DNA of 40,207 nt from Enterobacteria phage CUS-3, in the sequence record CP000711. One strand, given 5' to 3'. Shown here in pieces: positions 30,001 to 36,000 of this stretch. Position 1 is the first letter of the stretch. The number at the start of each line of letters is the position of its first letter. Position numbers: made by a program.

Positions 30001-33000
30001 TGCTTCGCTCTGCAATCTGCAATGCGCTCATTTCCATTGAGAAAATCAATACCCCGCGCCGGACGTCAGAACCAGGAATAACGCGGCTTGCAACGCCTTC
30101 GGCAATCTTCAGCGCCAGCTCGGTTTTCCCCATACCAGGACGAGCAGCGATTATCACCAGGTCTTCTGCGTTCATCCCTCCGGTGATGGCATCAAGTTCT
30201 TCGATTCCGGTCTTCAGGGTATCGGACTCTTCTCCGTTCCTCAGACGCCTGTCAAGCGTGTCAGTGTAGTCAGTAATGATTTCCCCTAACCGTACAGGTT
30301 TAACCTCGTCACGGGGCTTTCTGATGGCTGAAAGACGCTTTACAAGCTCATCCATCGCCTGACTCGATGCGTCGATGGTTCCGCTCTGAATTGGTTCACG
30401 CATTTCATCCATGATTTCCAGCACCAGACGGCGGTGATAGTTATCCGCGACCATTCCGGCATATCCCTTCAGGTTTGCGGCACTCGGGCAGTTTTTGCTG
30501 GTCATCAGGATTGCGGTGAAATGCTCCTCTCCGCACGCCTCGGCAACCATCAGCGCGTCGATTAGGTTTCTGTTTCTCGCCTGCTTGCGAATAACCTCGA
30601 AGGCTTTCCGGTAGAGCGGAATTGAAAACGCTTCCGGCTCCAGCGTTGCAAGAACGTCACTGGCGGTTGGAGTTAATCCACCAATCAGCAGGCCACCGAT
30701 AACGCTCGCTTCGATATCCTGTCTCATGCAATCCCCCTGTCTGCAAACTTCCCTTCCCGAACTCCCGTTAACGAGTCTTCTCTCAGCAGGTAATCAAAAT
30801 CAGCCGTCCAGCCCGTGTCGTTGTCTCCGAAGTAAAACGGCTTGGCCTGATGCACAAACGCCCTGACATACGCTCTGAAACCGTCCACGTTTGGCGTTTT
30901 CAGTTGCGGGATGATTTTCTTCAGGCGGCGTTTTCGTTTCTCGTTGACCGCAACAGCGTGTGGCAGTCTGTCACCGACTTCGGTGTTGTAGGCGTTCAGG
31001 AAGGATTCGTAGTCGATTCGTTCTGCCTTGCGACGTTCAGGTTTAACCTGCCCATCGCCTCCCCCATTGGGGGGTAGGGGGGTATTATTTATATTCTTGT
31101 TAATACCTTCTTGTTCATGATGTGCGGTTGTTTGTGCGGCTTCATGTGCGCTTTCATGTGCGGCATGTACGCTGAAAGCCGCGCTATTGCTGGCTTCATC
31201 ATGTGCGGCATCATGTGCGGTTGTTTGTGCGGCTTCATGTGCGGGTAAATTGTCCATTTTTTGAGCATATTCATGGTAATTTGTGATGGTTATCACACGG
31301 CCTTTTTGCTTCTCTCCATCAATGGAGATCATCCCCTCTTTCACAAAAACCTGAAGCATCCGCTCAACCTGATCACGGCTTGCTGGCTTGCCATGTCTGT
31401 CGCATAACTGAAGACCTAAATCAGCTGCTGTCACAACCAGTTGACCGGGTTGCAGATGCCATTCATGACCTTTGAAATTCGCTTTGTATGGCTTTCTGGC
31501 GGCATTCAGGAGAAGGTTTTCCCACAGGGTGCGAAGATAAACATCTTTCGCCCATGACTGTTTCAGAATGCTCCGGTACAACGGAATGTAACCAGTTTTC
31601 TGGTTCTCCATCCTGTTGCTCCTGCGCTCGTGTGCGGCGCTGAAATCGTAGATTTTTGCTGTATTGCTCATAACTACCTGCCTTGACGAAAGACCTTAAG
31701 AACATCGTTAAACTGACTTACGGATATGTCTTCTTTGAGAAGCTTTTCCAGAAATGCGTTTGGAATGAACGTATATCCCTCCTCTTTTGGTAGAGACGGG
31801 AGCAACGCCCTCGCCTCAGCCTTCAGAAGCTCAGTTCTGGCAACTTTCACAAAAGAGATTTGAGTTCTTTCATCAATGGAACGAAGGAAGCGCAAACGCT
31901 TAGCTTCTTTGTGTGTATCAGGTGGATTAAAGCCTTTGTTTCGCATATAATTACCTCGTTGGATGTTGTTAAAATTCCATTTGTATTTGATCAGAACGCT
32001 CGGTTGCCGCCGGGCGTTTTTTATTGGTGAGAATCGAAGCAACTTGTCGTGCCAATCGAGCCATGTCGTCGTCGACAACACCCCATTCAAGAACAGCAAG
32101 CAGCATTGAGAACTTTGGAATCCAGTCCCTCTTCCACCTGCTGATCTGCGACTTATCAACGCCCACAGCTTCCGCTGTCTTCTCAGTTCCAAGCATTGCG
32201 ATTTTGTTAAGCAACGCACTCTCGATTCTTAGAGCCTCGTTGCGTTTGTTTGCACGAACCATATGTAAGTATTTCCTTAACAAATAAGAAGTTATGCGCA
32301 TCAACTTATGCGCGTTGTATTCCCGCATTTCGGCGGGAATGAGGACCATGACTGTTAAAGAGCAATTTGCTTATGCCGCTTTGCGGTAAGCGCTTTCTTG
32401 ATACTTCAGGGCGCCAGCTGTAACGACTTCCAGTCGATAGGCGTCTTTCTCTGGGATGACTTCCTTCCACTGAGAGACTGCTGCGTCGCTAATGCCTAAC
32501 GCTTTAGCTACAGCACGCTGGGTTCCGAAGTGGTCGATAACATCTTTCTTGTACATAGACTCGCTCCGAAATTAAAGAACACTTAAATTATCCACTAAAG
32601 GAATCTTAAGTCAAGTTTATTTAAGATGTCTTAACTATGAAAACTCAATTGATGGGAGAGCGCATTCGCGCTCGGAGAAAAGAACTCAAGATCAGGCAGG
32701 CCGCACTTGGAAAGATGGTCGGCGTGTCTAATGTTGCCATATCTCAGTGGGAACGCTCTGAGACAGAGCCAAATGGAGAGAATCTTCTCGCCCTGGCTAA
32801 TGCGTTGAAGTGTTCCCCTGACTATCTGATGAAAGGAGAGGAAAGTCTTTCAAACATTGCCTATCACAGTAGGCATGATCCAAGAGGGTCATACCCTCTG
32901 ATTAGCTGGGTGAGCGCAGGATGCTGGATGGAAGCTGTAGAACCATATCATAAGCGTGCAATAGATAACTGGTACGATACAACCGTAGACTGTTCAGAAG

Positions 33001-36000
33001 ATTCGTTTTGGTTGGACGTGAAGGGAGACTCAATGACGGCTCCGGCCGGTCTCAGTATCCCTGAAGGAATGATAATACTCGTCGATCCTGAAGTAGAGCC
33101 GCGTAACGGGAAACTGGTAGTTGCAAAGCTCGAAGGAGAAAACGAGGCAACTTTCAAGAAGTTAGTTATTGATGCAGGCAGGAAGTTTCTAAAACCACTT
33201 AACCCACAATATCCGATGATCGAGATCAACGGAAACTGCAAAATCATCGGCGTAGTTGTCGATGCAAAACTAGCAAACCTTCCATAAGGGGGCATTCGCC
33301 CCTTTTTTTTTATTTCCTTTAAAAATCAAAGCTAAACTTAAGTTACGAAAGAAAATTTAAGTTTTCTTCAAAAATACTCTTGACCATTAATTAAAGAGAT
33401 CTTAAATTTAAGCCATCAGCAGGACGCTGGAAGCCAAACGGAAAAGATTGGCAGGCTCTTTAACATTGATGGGATTGTCCCGCCGAAATGCGGGAACCAA
33501 AGAGTAGTTGGCTTTGGGGTGACGTGAAGTGCAGCTGCACGACGGCAACCGGAAGATAAGCACCCGGCGCGTCACCGCCAAAGTCAATTCCATAGGCGTT
33601 ATGCAGCCGCCACCATATTCAAGAAAGCTGCACAAGAGGTAGGAGGATTTATGTGAATACTTACATTCAATTGAGAGATTAATTAAATAGAACTGATCGA
33701 GCAGAGTCCATAAAGGCTCATAAATGCTCTTCCATCCCCGTCTAATTGGCGGGGAAGGAAACCACTTTGTAATAAAAAAATTCCAAAGTTGTTTCATCGG
33801 AGGTCAACATGACAGTAGTCATTACATATCTGGCTGACGATAACGCCAGAAATCGCCGCAGAGCACGCAGACAGGCTCAACGTGAACAGGCAATGCAAGA
33901 ACAGCGACTGGCGCGAAAGATTGCGCTAAAGCTCTCTGGTTGCGTCAGAGCAGACAAAGCAGCATCACTCGGAAGCCTTCGCTGCAAGAAGGCAGAAGAA
34001 GTCGAGAGTAAACAGAATCGTATTTACTACCGCAAGCCACGCAGTGAAATGGGGGTGACTTGTGTTGGTCGCCAGAAAATGAAATTAGGAAGCAAACCAC
34101 TTATTTGAGGTGATATATGGAAGAAGAATTTGAAGAGTTCGAAGAGCATCCGCAGGATGTGATGGAACAATACCAGGACTATCCTTATGACTACGACTAT
34201 TGATAAGAATCAATGGTGTGGACAATTCAAGCGATGCAATGGATGCAAGCTGCAATCGGAATGTATGGTTAAGCCTGAAGAAATGTTTCCTGTAATGGAA
34301 GATGGGAAATATGTCGATAAATGGGCAATACGAACGACGGCAATGATTGCCAGAGAACTTAGTAAACAGAATAACAAGGCTGCCTGATGGTGGCCTTTAT
34401 TTTTGTCCGTAAATAATTTCATGCTTATTACAATCAAGGTGATATATGGAAGAACAAGCAAACAAGATTCTCGTAGAACTTCTGCAAAAAGCCAGTAATG
34501 GAATAGACGCGGCTGTTTCATTTAGCCAGGCACAGATTCCTGATGTTGTTCGTCAGTTGCTAACATGGAGTTTTGTCCATAGCGCACTTTTCCAAGTGGC
34601 TGGGTTGTTGCTTTTAATTGCAGCAATGAAACTTCCTAGTTTTGCAAGAACGGCAAGAAATAATGGCGAGAGATGGACGTCTTTAGATGGATGTCCAAAC
34701 GATAGATATTTTATATCTTCGTTTTATTACGATATATGCACTGTATTTGCTCCTATATTTGGCTCAATTATTGGCGTTTTAATTATTGCCTTCAATTTCG
34801 AATGGTTGAAGATTTGGCTTGCACCTAAGTTATTCCTAATTGAATATGCAGCATCATTGGTTAAGTAATTTCAGGCCGCATAGTCGGCCTTTATTTTTGG
34901 CATAAACAACAGAATAAACACTGCACTGTGTATTCATTCCAACGAGTGAATACACGGAGCAATGTCGCTCGTAACTAAACAGGAGCCGACTTGTTCTGAT
35001 TGTTGGAAATCTTCTTTGCCCTCCAGTGTGAGGGCAATTTTTTTTGATGGAGGATATATGAGTGAAGTAACAGATTTAGTTGTTATTGAAAAAGCAAATG
35101 CAATGACTGTATTTCAGTCTGCCGACCAGATTGAAGAAATTCTCCAAAAGGTTGAACGTGAAGTTATGTCATTTGTGCCTGATATCACAACGGCAAAGGG
35201 CAGAAAGGAGATCGCTTCTCTGGCGTATAAAGTTGCGCAGACGAAAACATATCTCGATGGTCTTGGCAAAGACCTTGTTGCTGAACTGAAGGAAATTCCA
35301 AAGCTAATTGATGCCAACCGCAAGACAGTGCGCGATCGCCTTGATGAACTGAAAGCCAAGGCGCGCCAGCCTCTTACTGATTATGAGGAAGAATCAGGCG
35401 CGGATTAAAGCCGAAGAAGAAGCTAAGGCAGCAGCTGAAGCTCTCGCAAAGCAAATTGAGTCTGACCATGAAATAGCGATTTTGATGGATCGCGAATTTG
35501 ACCGCCAAAGAGAAGAGGCAAGACTCAAAGCGGAGCAGGAAAAGCGAGAGCATGAAGAACGATTAAAAAGAGAAGCTGAAGAGAAAGCCAGAGCAGAAGC
35601 CGAAGCAAAGGCAAAAGCCGAAATTGAAGCAGCAGCAAGGCGAGAAGCAGAAGCTAAGGCCGCAGCGGAACGTGCAGAGCGTGAACGCATTGAAGCCGAG
35701 CAACGAGCACAGCGCGAAGCAAAAGAGGCAGCAGAACGAGCTGAAAGAGAAAAGCAGGCAGCAATTGAAGCAGAACGCAGAAAAGCACAGGAGGAGGCTG
35801 AACGAATCCGTCGCGAGGCTGAAGCAAAAGAGCAAGCCAGAATAGCAGAAGAAAAAAGAATCAAGGACGAAGAAGAGCGTAGAGCAAAGGATAAAGCTCA
35901 CCGGAAAGAAGTAAATAACAAAATACTTGCTGACCTTATCAAGGTTGGCGCATCAGAAGATGTTGCTAAAAATATCATAACAGCCATCGTAAAAGGCGAA

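What the first reader, a model, noticed from the sequence alone, without database searches (positions are those of the whole stretch)
32320..33495. Matching nutR and nutL sites with identical boxB hairpins flanking the immunity region
boxA-like (T)GCTCTTTAACA followed by the same boxB hairpin TCCCGCCGAAATGCGGGA occurs downstream of cro on the minus strand and downstream of PL on the + strand. This is consistent with the N-like protein at 33809..34108, whose arginine-rich motif would bind this boxB. The PL leader between nutL and N is long (~300 nt) and contains further dyad symmetry (GTGACG ... CGTCAC, GCAGCTGC) that may be an RNA processing or regulatory structure.
Basis: partly seen in the sequence, partly recalled or inferred. 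Interest (0 to 1): 0.35.

Follow-up and report, generated by a model that had tools for sequence, protein, structure and literature searches.

The report
Known N-antitermination nut sites, HK620 type
The two matching hairpins are the nutR and nutL sites where a lambda-like phage's N protein loads onto RNA polymerase; they are base-identical to sites already annotated in coliphage HK620, so the finding is correct but ordinary, apart from an undescribed 206-base insert in the RNA leader before N.

Summary
The 18-mer TCCCGCCGAAATGCGGGA occurs exactly twice, at 32321-32338 (-) and 33478-33495 (+). Each copy lies 12-14 nt after a consensus boxA, in the sense of the PR and PL transcripts.

The region is a P22-type immunity cassette (c2, cro) with a lambda-type cII and an N gene. 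Both nut sites are base-identical to the nutL and nutR annotated in coliphage HK620 (2001). N residues 1-56 equal HK620 N, and the rest is of phage 21 type. In all related leaders I fetched, boxB type and the arginine-rich motif (ARM) swap together. This segment is 100% identical to prophages of UPEC strains UTI89, NU14 and UM146.

It has the same form as the RNase III-processed N-leader helix of lambda, and its arms covary across about 10 leader families.

The leader is long because of a 206-nt insert (33589-33794). The insert is absent from HK620, 21, P22 and lambda. It is present in HK140, in 159 of 5426 E. coli genomes and in leaders with three N/nut specificities. It carries an invariant Shine-Dalgarno plus AUG-UGA start-stop and several hairpins, four of them with compensatory changes. 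Its function is unknown.

The parts
32353..32364 (-). nutR boxA, TGCTCTTTAACA; starts 6 nt after the cro stop codon
   Evidence: Sequence. Identical to the boxA region of the nutR annotated in HK620.
32321..32338 (-). nutR boxB hairpin UCCCGC-CGAAAU-GCGGGA
   Evidence: Exact match; folds in context; identical to HK620 nutR.
32371..32556 (-). cro (P22-type Cro), first gene of the PR transcript
   Evidence: Pfam P22_Cro, E 8.7e-28.
32637..33287 (+). c2/cI repressor (P22-type; HTH plus S24 peptidase)
   Evidence: Pfam HTH_3 and Peptidase_S24. The same protein (WP_000856967.1) is annotated in related prophages.
33286..33305 (+). Intrinsic terminator after the repressor gene (tIMM equivalent)
   Evidence: Terminator scan. 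HK620 annotates tIMM at the same relative position.
33380..33408 (+). PL promoter (TTGACC, 17 nt, TAAATT). The transcript start is inferred at about 33415 from the ATCAGCAGGACGC shared with lambda PL RNA
   Evidence: Promoter scan; leader sequences. That lambda PL RNA begins with this sequence is from memory; one search shows only the DNA.
33455..33465 (+). nutL boxA, GCTCTTTAACA
   Evidence: Identical in HK620, HK140, N7 and phage 21 leaders.
33478..33495 (+). nutL boxB hairpin, identical to the nutR boxB
33506..33589 (+). N-leader helix: a 21-bp stem with one bulge (GUUGGCUUUGGGGUGACGUG / CGCGUCACC-G-CCAAAGUCAAU) closing two small hairpins. Candidate RNase III site
   Evidence: -41.3 kcal/mol, z -4.8, 0 of 200 shuffles as stable. 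Same framing (Y)UUUGG...CCAAAG and fully covarying arms in 19 distinct variants, including lambda, P22-like and phage 21.
33589..33794 (+). 206-nt optional leader insert ('module 4'), absent from HK620, N7, phage 21, P22-like SF11 and lambda leaders
   Evidence: Alignments. HK140 is the only phage, under two accessions, among 50,697 phage records to hold it; 159 of 5426 E. coli genomes hold it. Consensus structure and pair counts.
33641..33656 (+). AGGAGG-AUUU-AUG-UGA: a strong Shine-Dalgarno followed by a start codon and an immediate stop (start-stop), inside the insert
   Evidence: Kept in 64 of 64 insert copies retrieved with an independent pattern. It is the longest invariant block of alignment A6.
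33736..33754 (+). G+C-rich hairpin CCCCGUC-UAAUU-GGCGGGG in the insert; stem kept, loop free to vary
   Evidence: Other variants have CCCCUC...GAGGGG with loops AAUUC, AGUUC, UUAU, UAUAU, AUGUC or ACAUA.
33759..33794 (+). Last hairpin of the insert, AAACCACUUUG...CAAAGUUGUUU, ending 4 nt before the N Shine-Dalgarno
   Evidence: A C-to-A change repairs the single mismatch in L015, L054 and L062. P22-type leaders have a different pairing here, UGAAAUG/CAUUUCA.
33809..34108 (+). N antiterminator, 99 aa. The ARM (residues about 11-27, DNARNRRRARRQAQREQ) is HK620-type; residues 34-99 are phage 21-type. Shine-Dalgarno GGAGG at 33799-33803
   Evidence: Pfam N_peptide scores only 18 bits against a 27.9-bit cut-off.
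34376..34397 (+). First intrinsic-terminator-like site downstream of N in the PL operon (others at 34873-34890 and 35016-35037); the presumed targets of antitermination
   Evidence: Terminator scan: 10 sites found against 3.3 expected.

Best explanation
These are the nutR and nutL sites of a lambdoid prophage that uses the HK620-type N/nut specificity. Transcripts from PR (leftward in this window) and PL (rightward) each carry a consensus boxA followed by the boxB hairpin UCCCGC-CGAAAU-GCGGGA. By established knowledge of the lambda system, NusB and NusE bind boxA. The arginine-rich N-terminus of the N protein (33809-34108) binds boxB. The C-terminal part of N, which is homologous to lambda and phage 21 N, holds the complex on RNA polymerase, so that it reads through the terminators downstream of N and, inferred, those beyond nutR. 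These steps are inferred from homology, not shown here.

The hexaloop is most simply read as a GAAA tetraloop flanked by a C.U pair. This parallels the C-UAAC-C hexaloop of phage 21 boxB (inference).

Between nutL and N lies an 84-nt helix with a 21-bp stem. It is the counterpart of the RNase III-processed helix of the lambda N leader. It most likely lets RNase III separate nutL from the N message and so tune N translation (inferred by analogy, about 0.6).

In this prophage a 206-nt structured insert carrying a Shine-Dalgarno plus AUG-UGA start-stop sits between that helix and the N ribosome-binding site. My best guess (about 0.3) is that it is a cis-acting module that modulates N translation or protects the long untranslated leader. 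Its function is not established.
For: - Exact duplicate boxB, far beyond chance, with stable hairpins in both contexts.
- Base identity with the nutL and nutR annotated in HK620.
- Canonical positions: nutR lies 6 nt after the cro stop and before cII; nutL lies about 40 nt into the PL transcript, before N.
- N has the ARM. It is 70% identical to phage 21 N overall and nearly identical in residues 34-99. Its C-terminal 35 residues match lambda N at E 4e-10.
- Specificity swaps as a unit. mEp235 has the same P22-type c2/cro and the same boxA flanks, but phage 21 boxB at both nut sites together with the phage 21 ARM.
- Among about 80 fetched leaders, boxB type and ARM type co-occur without exception.
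- Terminator-like sites lie downstream of N.
- Leader helix: -41.3 kcal/mol, z -4.8. The framing UUUGG...CCAAAG is shared with lambda, and the arms differ yet stay complementary in 19 distinct variants.
- RNase III processing of the lambda N leader is established (Steege et al. 1987, cited in PMC5371410).
- Insert: 98.5% of cells paired, 5 pairs with compensatory changes, and the start-stop is kept in 64 of 64 copies.
Against: - Nothing here tests RNA binding, antitermination or cleavage.
- Pfam's N_peptide model scores below its cut-off (18 against 27.9 bits).
- The boxB loop has 6 nt, not the 5 of lambda and P22, and no structure or binding data exist for this pair. No open paper prints either sequence.
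- The simple scan finds no intrinsic terminator on the PR side between nutR and O, so tR1 is only inferred.
- For the insert, the sequences are closely related and fall into few lineages, so the covariation rests on few independent events.
- HK620 and N7 carry the same N and nut sites without the insert, so it is dispensable.
Confidence: 0.9

Rival explanations
1. The two hairpins are transcription terminators or attenuators, not protein-binding nut sites.
For: They are G+C-rich stem-loops at the start of both early operons.
Against: No U tract follows either hairpin (the following bases are AACCAAAGAG at nutL and AAUACAACGC at nutR). The terminator scan does not call them. They sit at a fixed 12-14 nt behind a consensus boxA. 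They are exchanged together with the ARM of N in related phages.
Confidence: 0.02
2. The repeated 18-mer is a DNA-level feature (a protein-binding site, a recombination scar or a gene-conversion tract) with no role in RNA.
For: The two copies are identical over 19 nt. In lambda, P22-like and phage 21 leaders the nutL and nutR boxB sequences differ. This hints at recent conversion between the two sites.
Against: Both copies are in the sense orientation of their transcripts, behind boxA, at the positions of nut sites in every compared phage. Identity of the two copies is equally expected if one N protein must read both.
Confidence: 0.03
3. The long leader is a neutral by-product of recombination: the 206-nt insert is passenger DNA picked up at the conserved CCAAAG motif and has no function.
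For: It is flanked by direct repeats (CCAAAGT here, CAAAGCCATTTCA in P22-type leaders). Most phages with the same N and nut lack it. L065 shows a recombination scar, a remnant HK620-type N start upstream of a different N. Rfam has no match.
Against: The Shine-Dalgarno plus AUG-UGA block is unchanged in 64 of 64 copies while its flanks diverge to about 71-79% identity. Four helices show compensatory changes. It has spread to leaders of three N/nut types (HK620-, P22- and 933W-like) and is always placed the same way relative to the N ribosome-binding site.
Confidence: 0.35
4. The leader encodes small proteins. Candidates are the antisense 129-aa ORF 33408-33797 (annotated as a hypothetical protein in RefSeq for NU14) and the + strand ORF 33529-33642 (annotated as HK140_048).
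For: Both are annotated in public records.
Against: The reading frames are not kept between insert variants; the antisense ORF breaks into pieces in different frames in HK140. PGAP does not call it in MS8345, S10 or CUPF06. It overlaps nutL and PL in antisense. The + strand ORF runs through the conserved helix and lacks a Shine-Dalgarno.
Confidence: 0.03

Closest known systems
Coliphage HK620 nutL/nutR and N (GenBank AF335538; Clark et al. 2001, cited from memory)
   Same: nutL and nutR are identical base for base, including boxA, spacers and boxB. N residues 1-56 are identical. The leader helix differs at one base.
   Different: HK620 has a different immunity region (its repressor is annotated as similar to the phage 434 and L cI proteins, plus hkaS) and a different N C-terminus. 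Its leader is short, about 108 nt, without the 206-nt insert. The HK620 sites are themselves annotated only as 'putative'.
Phage 21 N / nut
   Same: N residues 34-99 are almost identical. The PL leader up to and including boxA and the cro-to-boxA junction are identical. The leader helix is homologous, with compensatory differences. boxB is also a hexaloop hairpin; phage 21's is C-UAAC-C with a C-C flanking pair (PMC12550061).
   Different: The ARM (GTAKSRYKARRAEL against DNARNRRRARRQAQ) and both boxB sequences differ. Phage 21's nutL and nutR boxB stems differ from each other, whereas here they are identical.
Phage lambda N-nut system and the RNase III-processed N leader
   Same: Same layout: PL-boxA-boxB-long helix-N, and cro-boxA-boxB-cII. 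Same framing of the leader helix (GGCUUUGGGGUG...CACC-A-CCAAAG). The C-terminal domain of N is homologous. cII is lambda-type and the oop terminator is identical.
   Different: Lambda boxA is the weaker CGCTCTTA. Its boxB is a 5-bp stem with pentaloop GAAGA (nutL) or GAAAA (nutR). Its ARM has Trp18 (established knowledge), which this N lacks. The interior of the leader helix is unrelated. Lambda has no insert before the N ribosome-binding site.
P22 gene 24 / nut (read here from the P22-like phage SF11)
   Same: Same c2 and cro immunity proteins and operator-type sequences. boxA and the leader start are similar. nutR boxB CCGCCGACAACGCGG resembles CCGCCGAAAUGCGG in its stem.
   Different: The ARM (GNAKTRRHERRRK) and the loops (GACAA) differ, so the specificity is expected to differ. 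This window therefore combines P22 immunity with a non-P22 N/nut module.
Bacterial start-stop minimal ORFs (Meydan et al., bioRxiv 10.1101/520783)
   Same: A Shine-Dalgarno followed by AUG and an immediate stop. In E. coli such sites bind ribosomes and slightly lower expression of the host gene.
   Different: Those cases lie inside coding genes. This one lies in a phage 5' leader, within a conserved structured module. No occupancy data exist.

Membership tests
Lambdoid N/nut antitermination system | Two nut sites in sense orientation: one early in the PL transcript upstream of N, one just downstream of cro in the PR transcript | tested here: met
   nutL lies at 33455-33495 (+), between PL (33380-33408) and N (33809). 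nutR lies at 32364-32321 (-), 6 nt after the cro stop and before cII.
Lambdoid N/nut antitermination system | boxA (consensus YGCUCUUUAACA) 5' of boxB, separated by a short spacer | tested here: met
   TGCTCTTTAACA with a 14-nt spacer at nutR; GGCTCTTTAACA with a 12-nt spacer at nutL.
Lambdoid N/nut antitermination system | boxB forms a short stable hairpin with a purine-rich, GNRA-like loop | tested here: met
   6-bp stem, loop CGAAAU containing GAAA; -9.7 kcal/mol, z -2.9; forms in both contexts. The three-dimensional loop fold is not testable here.
Lambdoid N/nut antitermination system | [quoted passage not shown] | tested here: met
   7 Arg within residues 14-25. The C-terminal 35 aa are 54% identical to lambda N residues 74-107, E 4e-10. 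70% identical to phage 21 N. Caveat: Pfam N_peptide scores 18 bits, below its 27.9-bit cut-off.
Lambdoid N/nut antitermination system | Cognate pairing: ARM type and boxB type change together | tested here: met
   Perfect co-occurrence in about 80 leaders of 5 types. mEp235 against this window is a clean swap in an otherwise shared backbone. The sample was not drawn at random.
Lambdoid N/nut antitermination system | Terminators downstream of the nut sites that need to be overridden | tested here: inconclusive
   Three intrinsic-terminator-like sites lie downstream of N on the + strand (34376, 34873, 35016). None is called on the PR side; a Rho-dependent tR1 cannot be recognised with these tools.
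Lambdoid N/nut antitermination system | N binds boxB RNA and, with Nus factors, makes RNA polymerase termination-resistant | not testable with these tools
   Needs binding and read-through assays.
Lambda-type N-leader RNase III helix | Long (about 20 bp or more) imperfect helix between nutL and the N ribosome-binding site, framed by UUUGG...CCAAAG | tested here: met
   21-bp stem with one bulge, 33506-33589, -41.3 kcal/mol, z -4.8. Same framing as lambda.
Lambda-type N-leader RNase III helix | Structure rather than sequence is conserved among relatives | tested here: met
   19 distinct variants in about 10 families. The arms are completely different yet complementary, for example GGUGACG/CGUCACC, GAUGGCGCG/CGCGUCAU, GAUUGGAUG/CAUCCAAUC and GGUGUGUG/CACACACC.
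Lambda-type N-leader RNase III helix | Cleaved by RNase III, with an effect on N translation | not testable with these tools
   Known for lambda only (Steege et al. 1987, cited in PMC5371410).
nut-like site inside the insert (considered and rejected) | Single-stranded boxA core GCUCUUU followed by a hairpin with a conserved loop | tested here: not met
   The TGCTCTT(T)C at 33725-33733 is the 3' arm of a helix and changes to TGTTCTTT together with its partner in L065 and L087. The loop of the following hairpin is not conserved.
Start-stop minimal ORF | Shine-Dalgarno at a functional distance, with the start codon immediately followed by a stop | tested here: met
   AGGAGG-AUUU-AUG-UGA at 33641-33656, kept in 64 of 64 copies. 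Ribosome occupancy was not tested.

The most novel reading that the evidence does not exclude
The 206-nt insert (33589-33794) may be a previously undescribed, portable cis-regulatory RNA module of lambdoid N leaders. It has an accessible strong Shine-Dalgarno with an AUG-UGA start-stop, set among about five hairpins. It moves by recombination at the conserved CCAAAG motif between leaders of different N/nut specificity (HK620-, P22- and 933W-like). By parking a ribosome and uncoupling the N ribosome-binding site from the nutL/RNase III helix, it would reset how N synthesis is controlled, and with it the timing of the lysis-lysogeny decision.
Probability: 0.3. Interest if true: 0.45.

Novelty: already known. 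Interest (0 to 1): 0.2.

Why it matters
For annotation, the window can be labelled with confidence: nutR, nutL, N, PL and the leader helix. The antisense 'hypothetical protein' in RefSeq and the long form of cII that runs through nutR should not be believed.

Biologically the nut/N pair adds nothing new in kind. It does give a clean natural example of the modular swap of ARM plus both boxB sites, with P22 immunity, an HK620 ARM and boxB, and a phage 21 N body. This ARM-boxB pair has a true GAAA in a hexaloop and is found in about 10% of complete E. coli genomes and in many Stx-phage records. It appears never to have been studied biochemically, and could serve as one more orthogonal peptide-RNA tether.

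The optional leader insert with its invariant start-stop is the only part that could teach something new about how N synthesis is set.

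Tried and rejected
- **Rfam:** scanning 31500-35000 with permissive filters gave only three sub-threshold chance hits, none in the nut sites or the leader downstream of nutL. Related loci carrying the extra leader modules also gave nothing.
- **Known prophage sRNAs:** I asked whether the insert is one. AgvB/AsxR anti-sRNAs lie downstream of PR' (PMC4104026), and Pas sRNAs lie next to structural, Q or lysis genes. Neither is in N leaders.
- **Second nut site in the insert:** a boxA-like TGCTCTTTC plus hairpin looked like one. I rejected it because the 'boxA' is one arm of a covarying helix and the hairpin loop is not conserved.
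- **tRNA-like element in L087:** a GGTTCGACTCC motif in its leader helix suggested one, but ARAGORN finds no tRNA.
- **Small proteins on either strand of the leader:** the reading frames are not conserved.
- **Insert outside E. coli phages:** a scan of one genome per species with AGGAGGRTTTATGTGAAT gave 16 hits, none in Enterobacteriaceae (Firmicutes, Bacteroidota and a few other MAGs), all apparently chance.
- **Literature:** no open paper prints the ARM or the boxB sequence. Clark et al. 2001 and Bubunenko et al. 2013 are not held, and 'N-leader' plus RNase III found nothing.
- **Promoter inside the insert:** the scan calls none.
- **Not run:** the large protein-database searches, because identity with HK620 and phage 21 N already settled what the protein is.

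Full report
**1. Observation**

The 18-mer TCCCGCCGAAATGCGGGA occurs at 32321-32338 on the minus strand and at 33478-33495 on the plus strand. Nothing else in the window comes within three mismatches of it. Chance expectation is 0.02, and no shuffle of 100 gave two matches.

Each copy follows a boxA. At nutR, TGCTCTTTAACA lies at 32353-32364 (-), with a 14-nt spacer. At nutL, GCTCTTTAACA lies at 33455-33465 (+), with a 12-nt spacer.

As RNA the 18-mer folds into a 6-bp stem with loop CGAAAU (-9.7 kcal/mol, z -2.9). The same hairpin forms in both 50-nt contexts.

**2. Context**

The ORFs and Pfam hits define a lambdoid immunity region in inverted orientation:
- a P22-type Cro at 32371-32556 (-), E 8.7e-28;
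- a repressor with HTH and S24 peptidase domains at 32637-33287 (+);
- a lambda-type CII at 31969-32262 (-), E 5e-48;
- a 99-aa arginine-rich protein at 33809-34108 (+).

A terminator follows the repressor gene at 33286-33305. A PL-like promoter lies at 33380-33408. The transcript would begin with the ATCAGCAGGACGC that also lies at the PL end of the lambda leader; that lambda PL RNA starts with this sequence is from memory.

nutR starts 6 nt after the cro stop codon. nutL lies about 40 nt into the PL transcript. Three intrinsic-terminator-like sites follow N on the plus strand.

**3. It is already annotated elsewhere**

A megablast of 33290-34110 hits 253 phage records. The HK620 record (AF335538) carries features 'nutL; putative N-utilization leftward' and 'nutR'. 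Both are identical to the window's sites across boxA, spacer, boxB and flanks.

N residues 1-56 are identical to HK620 N. Residues 34-99 are almost identical to phage 21 N, which is 70% identical overall. The last 35 residues align with lambda N residues 74-107 at E 4e-10; that this lambda segment contacts RNA polymerase is from memory. Pfam's N_peptide model stays below its cut-off, at 18 against 27.9 bits, so membership rests on the pairwise evidence.

The stretch 33440-33830 is 100% identical to prophages in E. coli NU14 and other strains, and the insert (33587-33793 as queried) is 100% identical in NU14, UTI89 and UM146. A match to the leader is found in 525 of 5426 complete E. coli genomes.

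**4. Cognate pairing**

Phage mEp235 has the same P22-type c2 and cro, and the same leader up to boxA. It carries phage 21 boxB hairpins at both nut sites together with the phage 21 ARM.

Across all fetched PL leaders the pairing has no exception:

| boxB | ARM of N | Leaders |
|---|---|---|
| TCCCGCCGAAATGCGGG | DDNARNRRRARR | about 66 |
| GCGCTGACAAAGCGC | GNAKTRRH(E/Q)RRRK | 5 |
| phage 21 type | GTAKSRYKARR | 2 |
| lambda type | DAQTRRRERR | 1 |
| 933W-like type (L065) | SSAGRRRERRA | 1 |

The sample is not random, but the pattern is what a peptide-RNA recognition pair predicts.

The loop is a hexaloop. Phage 21 boxB is also a hexaloop, C-UAAC-C with a C-C flanking pair (PMC12550061). By analogy C-GAAA-U would be a true GNRA tetraloop flanked by C.U (inference). 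No open paper prints this ARM or this boxB, so the pair seems to be annotated but never tested.

**5. The leader helix**

Positions 33506-33589 fold into a 21-bp stem with one bulge, closing two small hairpins. The fold has -41.3 kcal/mol and z -4.8, and none of 200 shuffles is as stable.

The stem is framed by GGCUUUGG on the 5' side and CCAAAG on the 3' side. Lambda has the same frame (GGCTTTGGGGTGTGTG...CACACACCACCAAAGC).

In 19 distinct variants from about 10 families the frame is kept. These include lambda, a P22-like phage and phage 21. The arms are entirely different but complementary, and the interior ranges from 69 to 159 nt.

The lambda N leader is a known RNase III substrate (Steege et al. 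1987, cited in PMC5371410). From memory, cleavage there relieves N-dependent repression of N translation (Kameyama et al. 1991; Wilson et al. 2002). The window's helix is therefore best read as the same device. Cleavage itself is not shown.

**6. Why the leader is long**

HK620, N7, phage 21, the P22-like SF11 and lambda go from CCAAAG to the N Shine-Dalgarno within about 10-25 nt. The window has 206 extra nt (33589-33794) between CCAAAGTCAAT and CATCGGAGG.

- **Distribution.** HK140 is the only phage, listed under two accessions, among 50,697 phage records to share the insert, at 73% identity. It occurs in 159 of 5426 E. coli genomes, in bands of 97-100%, 79% and 71% identity, and in about 64 IMG/VR contigs.
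- **Mobility.** It also sits in leaders with P22-type nutL and gp24 (L019, L048, L066, L080) and upstream of a 933W-like N (L065). It is always just before the N ribosome-binding site. It is flanked by a direct repeat of the local CCAAAG region, which points to recombination at that motif.
- **Conserved content.** It holds a hairpin TGCAGC...GCTGCA and the block AGGAGG-AUUU-AUG-UGA (33641-33656). That block is unchanged in 64 of 64 copies found with an independent pattern.
- **Helices with compensatory changes.** GAGCAU/AUGCUC becomes GAACAU/AUGUUC. CCCCGUC/GGCGGGG alternates with CCCCUC/GAGGGG, with free loops. The final hairpin ends 4 nt before the N Shine-Dalgarno, and its single mismatch is repaired in three variants. 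Overall 98.5% of cells pair, against 37-45% when partners are slid, and 5 pairs show double changes.
- **Limits.** The sequences are closely related, so this is moderate evidence for structure.
- **Function.** It is unknown. Start-stops in E. coli bind ribosomes and slightly damp expression (bioRxiv 520783).

**7. Rivals**

The hairpins lack U tracts and are not terminators. The small ORFs annotated in the leader are not conserved in frame. A nut-like reading of the insert fails. The insert may still be neutral passenger DNA, which I put at 0.35.

**8. Verdict**

The finding is real and correctly interpreted, but it describes a known system that is already annotated in HK620. This segment is 100% identical to sequenced UPEC prophages. 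The only element without a description that I could find is the optional leader insert.

Noticed in passing
L011:~660-910 (also L036, L039, L047, L057, L058): A second optional leader module of about 250 nt sits between boxB and the leader helix in some related prophages. It starts with ACAGGAGGTGCCGTAATGGTGCACTAA (a Shine-Dalgarno plus a 3-codon ORF) and contains several GAAA-capped hairpins. Rfam has no match. So N leaders of this family carry at least two independent optional inserts.
   Followed up: partly
L010:~690-850; L018, L019, L020: In some relatives the leader helix keeps its base (GAUUGGAUG/CAUCCAAUC) but its interior is expanded to 146-159 nt with several branches.
   Followed up: partly
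window 31993-32020 (+): A terminator hairpin plus T-run lies antisense to the 3' end of cII. Over the last ~48 nt of the alignment (window ~31989-32033) the sequence is identical to the lambda oop RNA terminator region, so an oop-like antisense RNA is probably made. Rfam gave no hit.
   Followed up: partly
window 31114-31256 (inside the O-like gene 30724-31671, -): Four copies of a repeat built from 12-nt units (CATGTGCGG-type) lie inside the replication-initiator gene. They encode a His/Ala-rich stretch and are probably the origin iterons, as in lambda O.
   Followed up: no
window 32262-32349 (-): An in-frame ATG inside the nutR spacer extends the cII ORF to 126 aa, through boxB. HK140 and N7 annotate this long form (366 nt). 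The lambda-identical ribosome-binding site TAAGGAAATACTTACATATG supports the 97-aa start at 32262, as RefSeq annotates for NU14.
   Followed up: partly
window 33408-33797 (-): A 129-aa ORF antisense to nutL, the leader helix and the insert is annotated in RefSeq (WP_011478232.1, NU14). Its frame is broken in other insert variants, so it is probably not a gene.
   Followed up: yes
L045 (IMG/VR 2558309087_000002), reverse strand, ~170-370 nt after the start-stop: A 66-aa ORF (MSSRISNEQKDRL...) lies between the insert and an N gene with the same ARM. The nutL boxB there ends in G instead of A, giving a U.G closing pair.
   Followed up: no
L065 (IMG/VR 3300034682_000410): A remnant of the HK620-type N start (GGAGGTCAACATGACATTAG) is followed by CCAAAGTTCAACCGGAGG and a 933W-like N (MTRRTAFTGSSAGRRRE...). 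This is a visible recombination scar at the CCAAAG motif.
   Followed up: partly
L005 (mEp235) 1814-2460: mEp235 carries both an N gene (phage 21 ARM) and, directly downstream, a Nun-like termination factor gene.
   Followed up: no
window 32262-32320 (-): Between the nutR boxB and cII lies the hairpin GCGCAU-AAGUUG-AUGCGC followed by a U-rich stretch. HK620 annotates tR1 immediately after nutR. The fold is not more stable than shuffles (z -1.0), so a tR1 assignment is unproven.
   Followed up: partly
window 34365-34445 (-): A weak, sub-threshold Rfam hit to the enterobacterial sRNA STnc230 (27 bits against a 50-bit cut-off, E 0.53) overlaps the terminator after the ral-like gene. It is probably just the terminator hairpin.
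   Followed up: no
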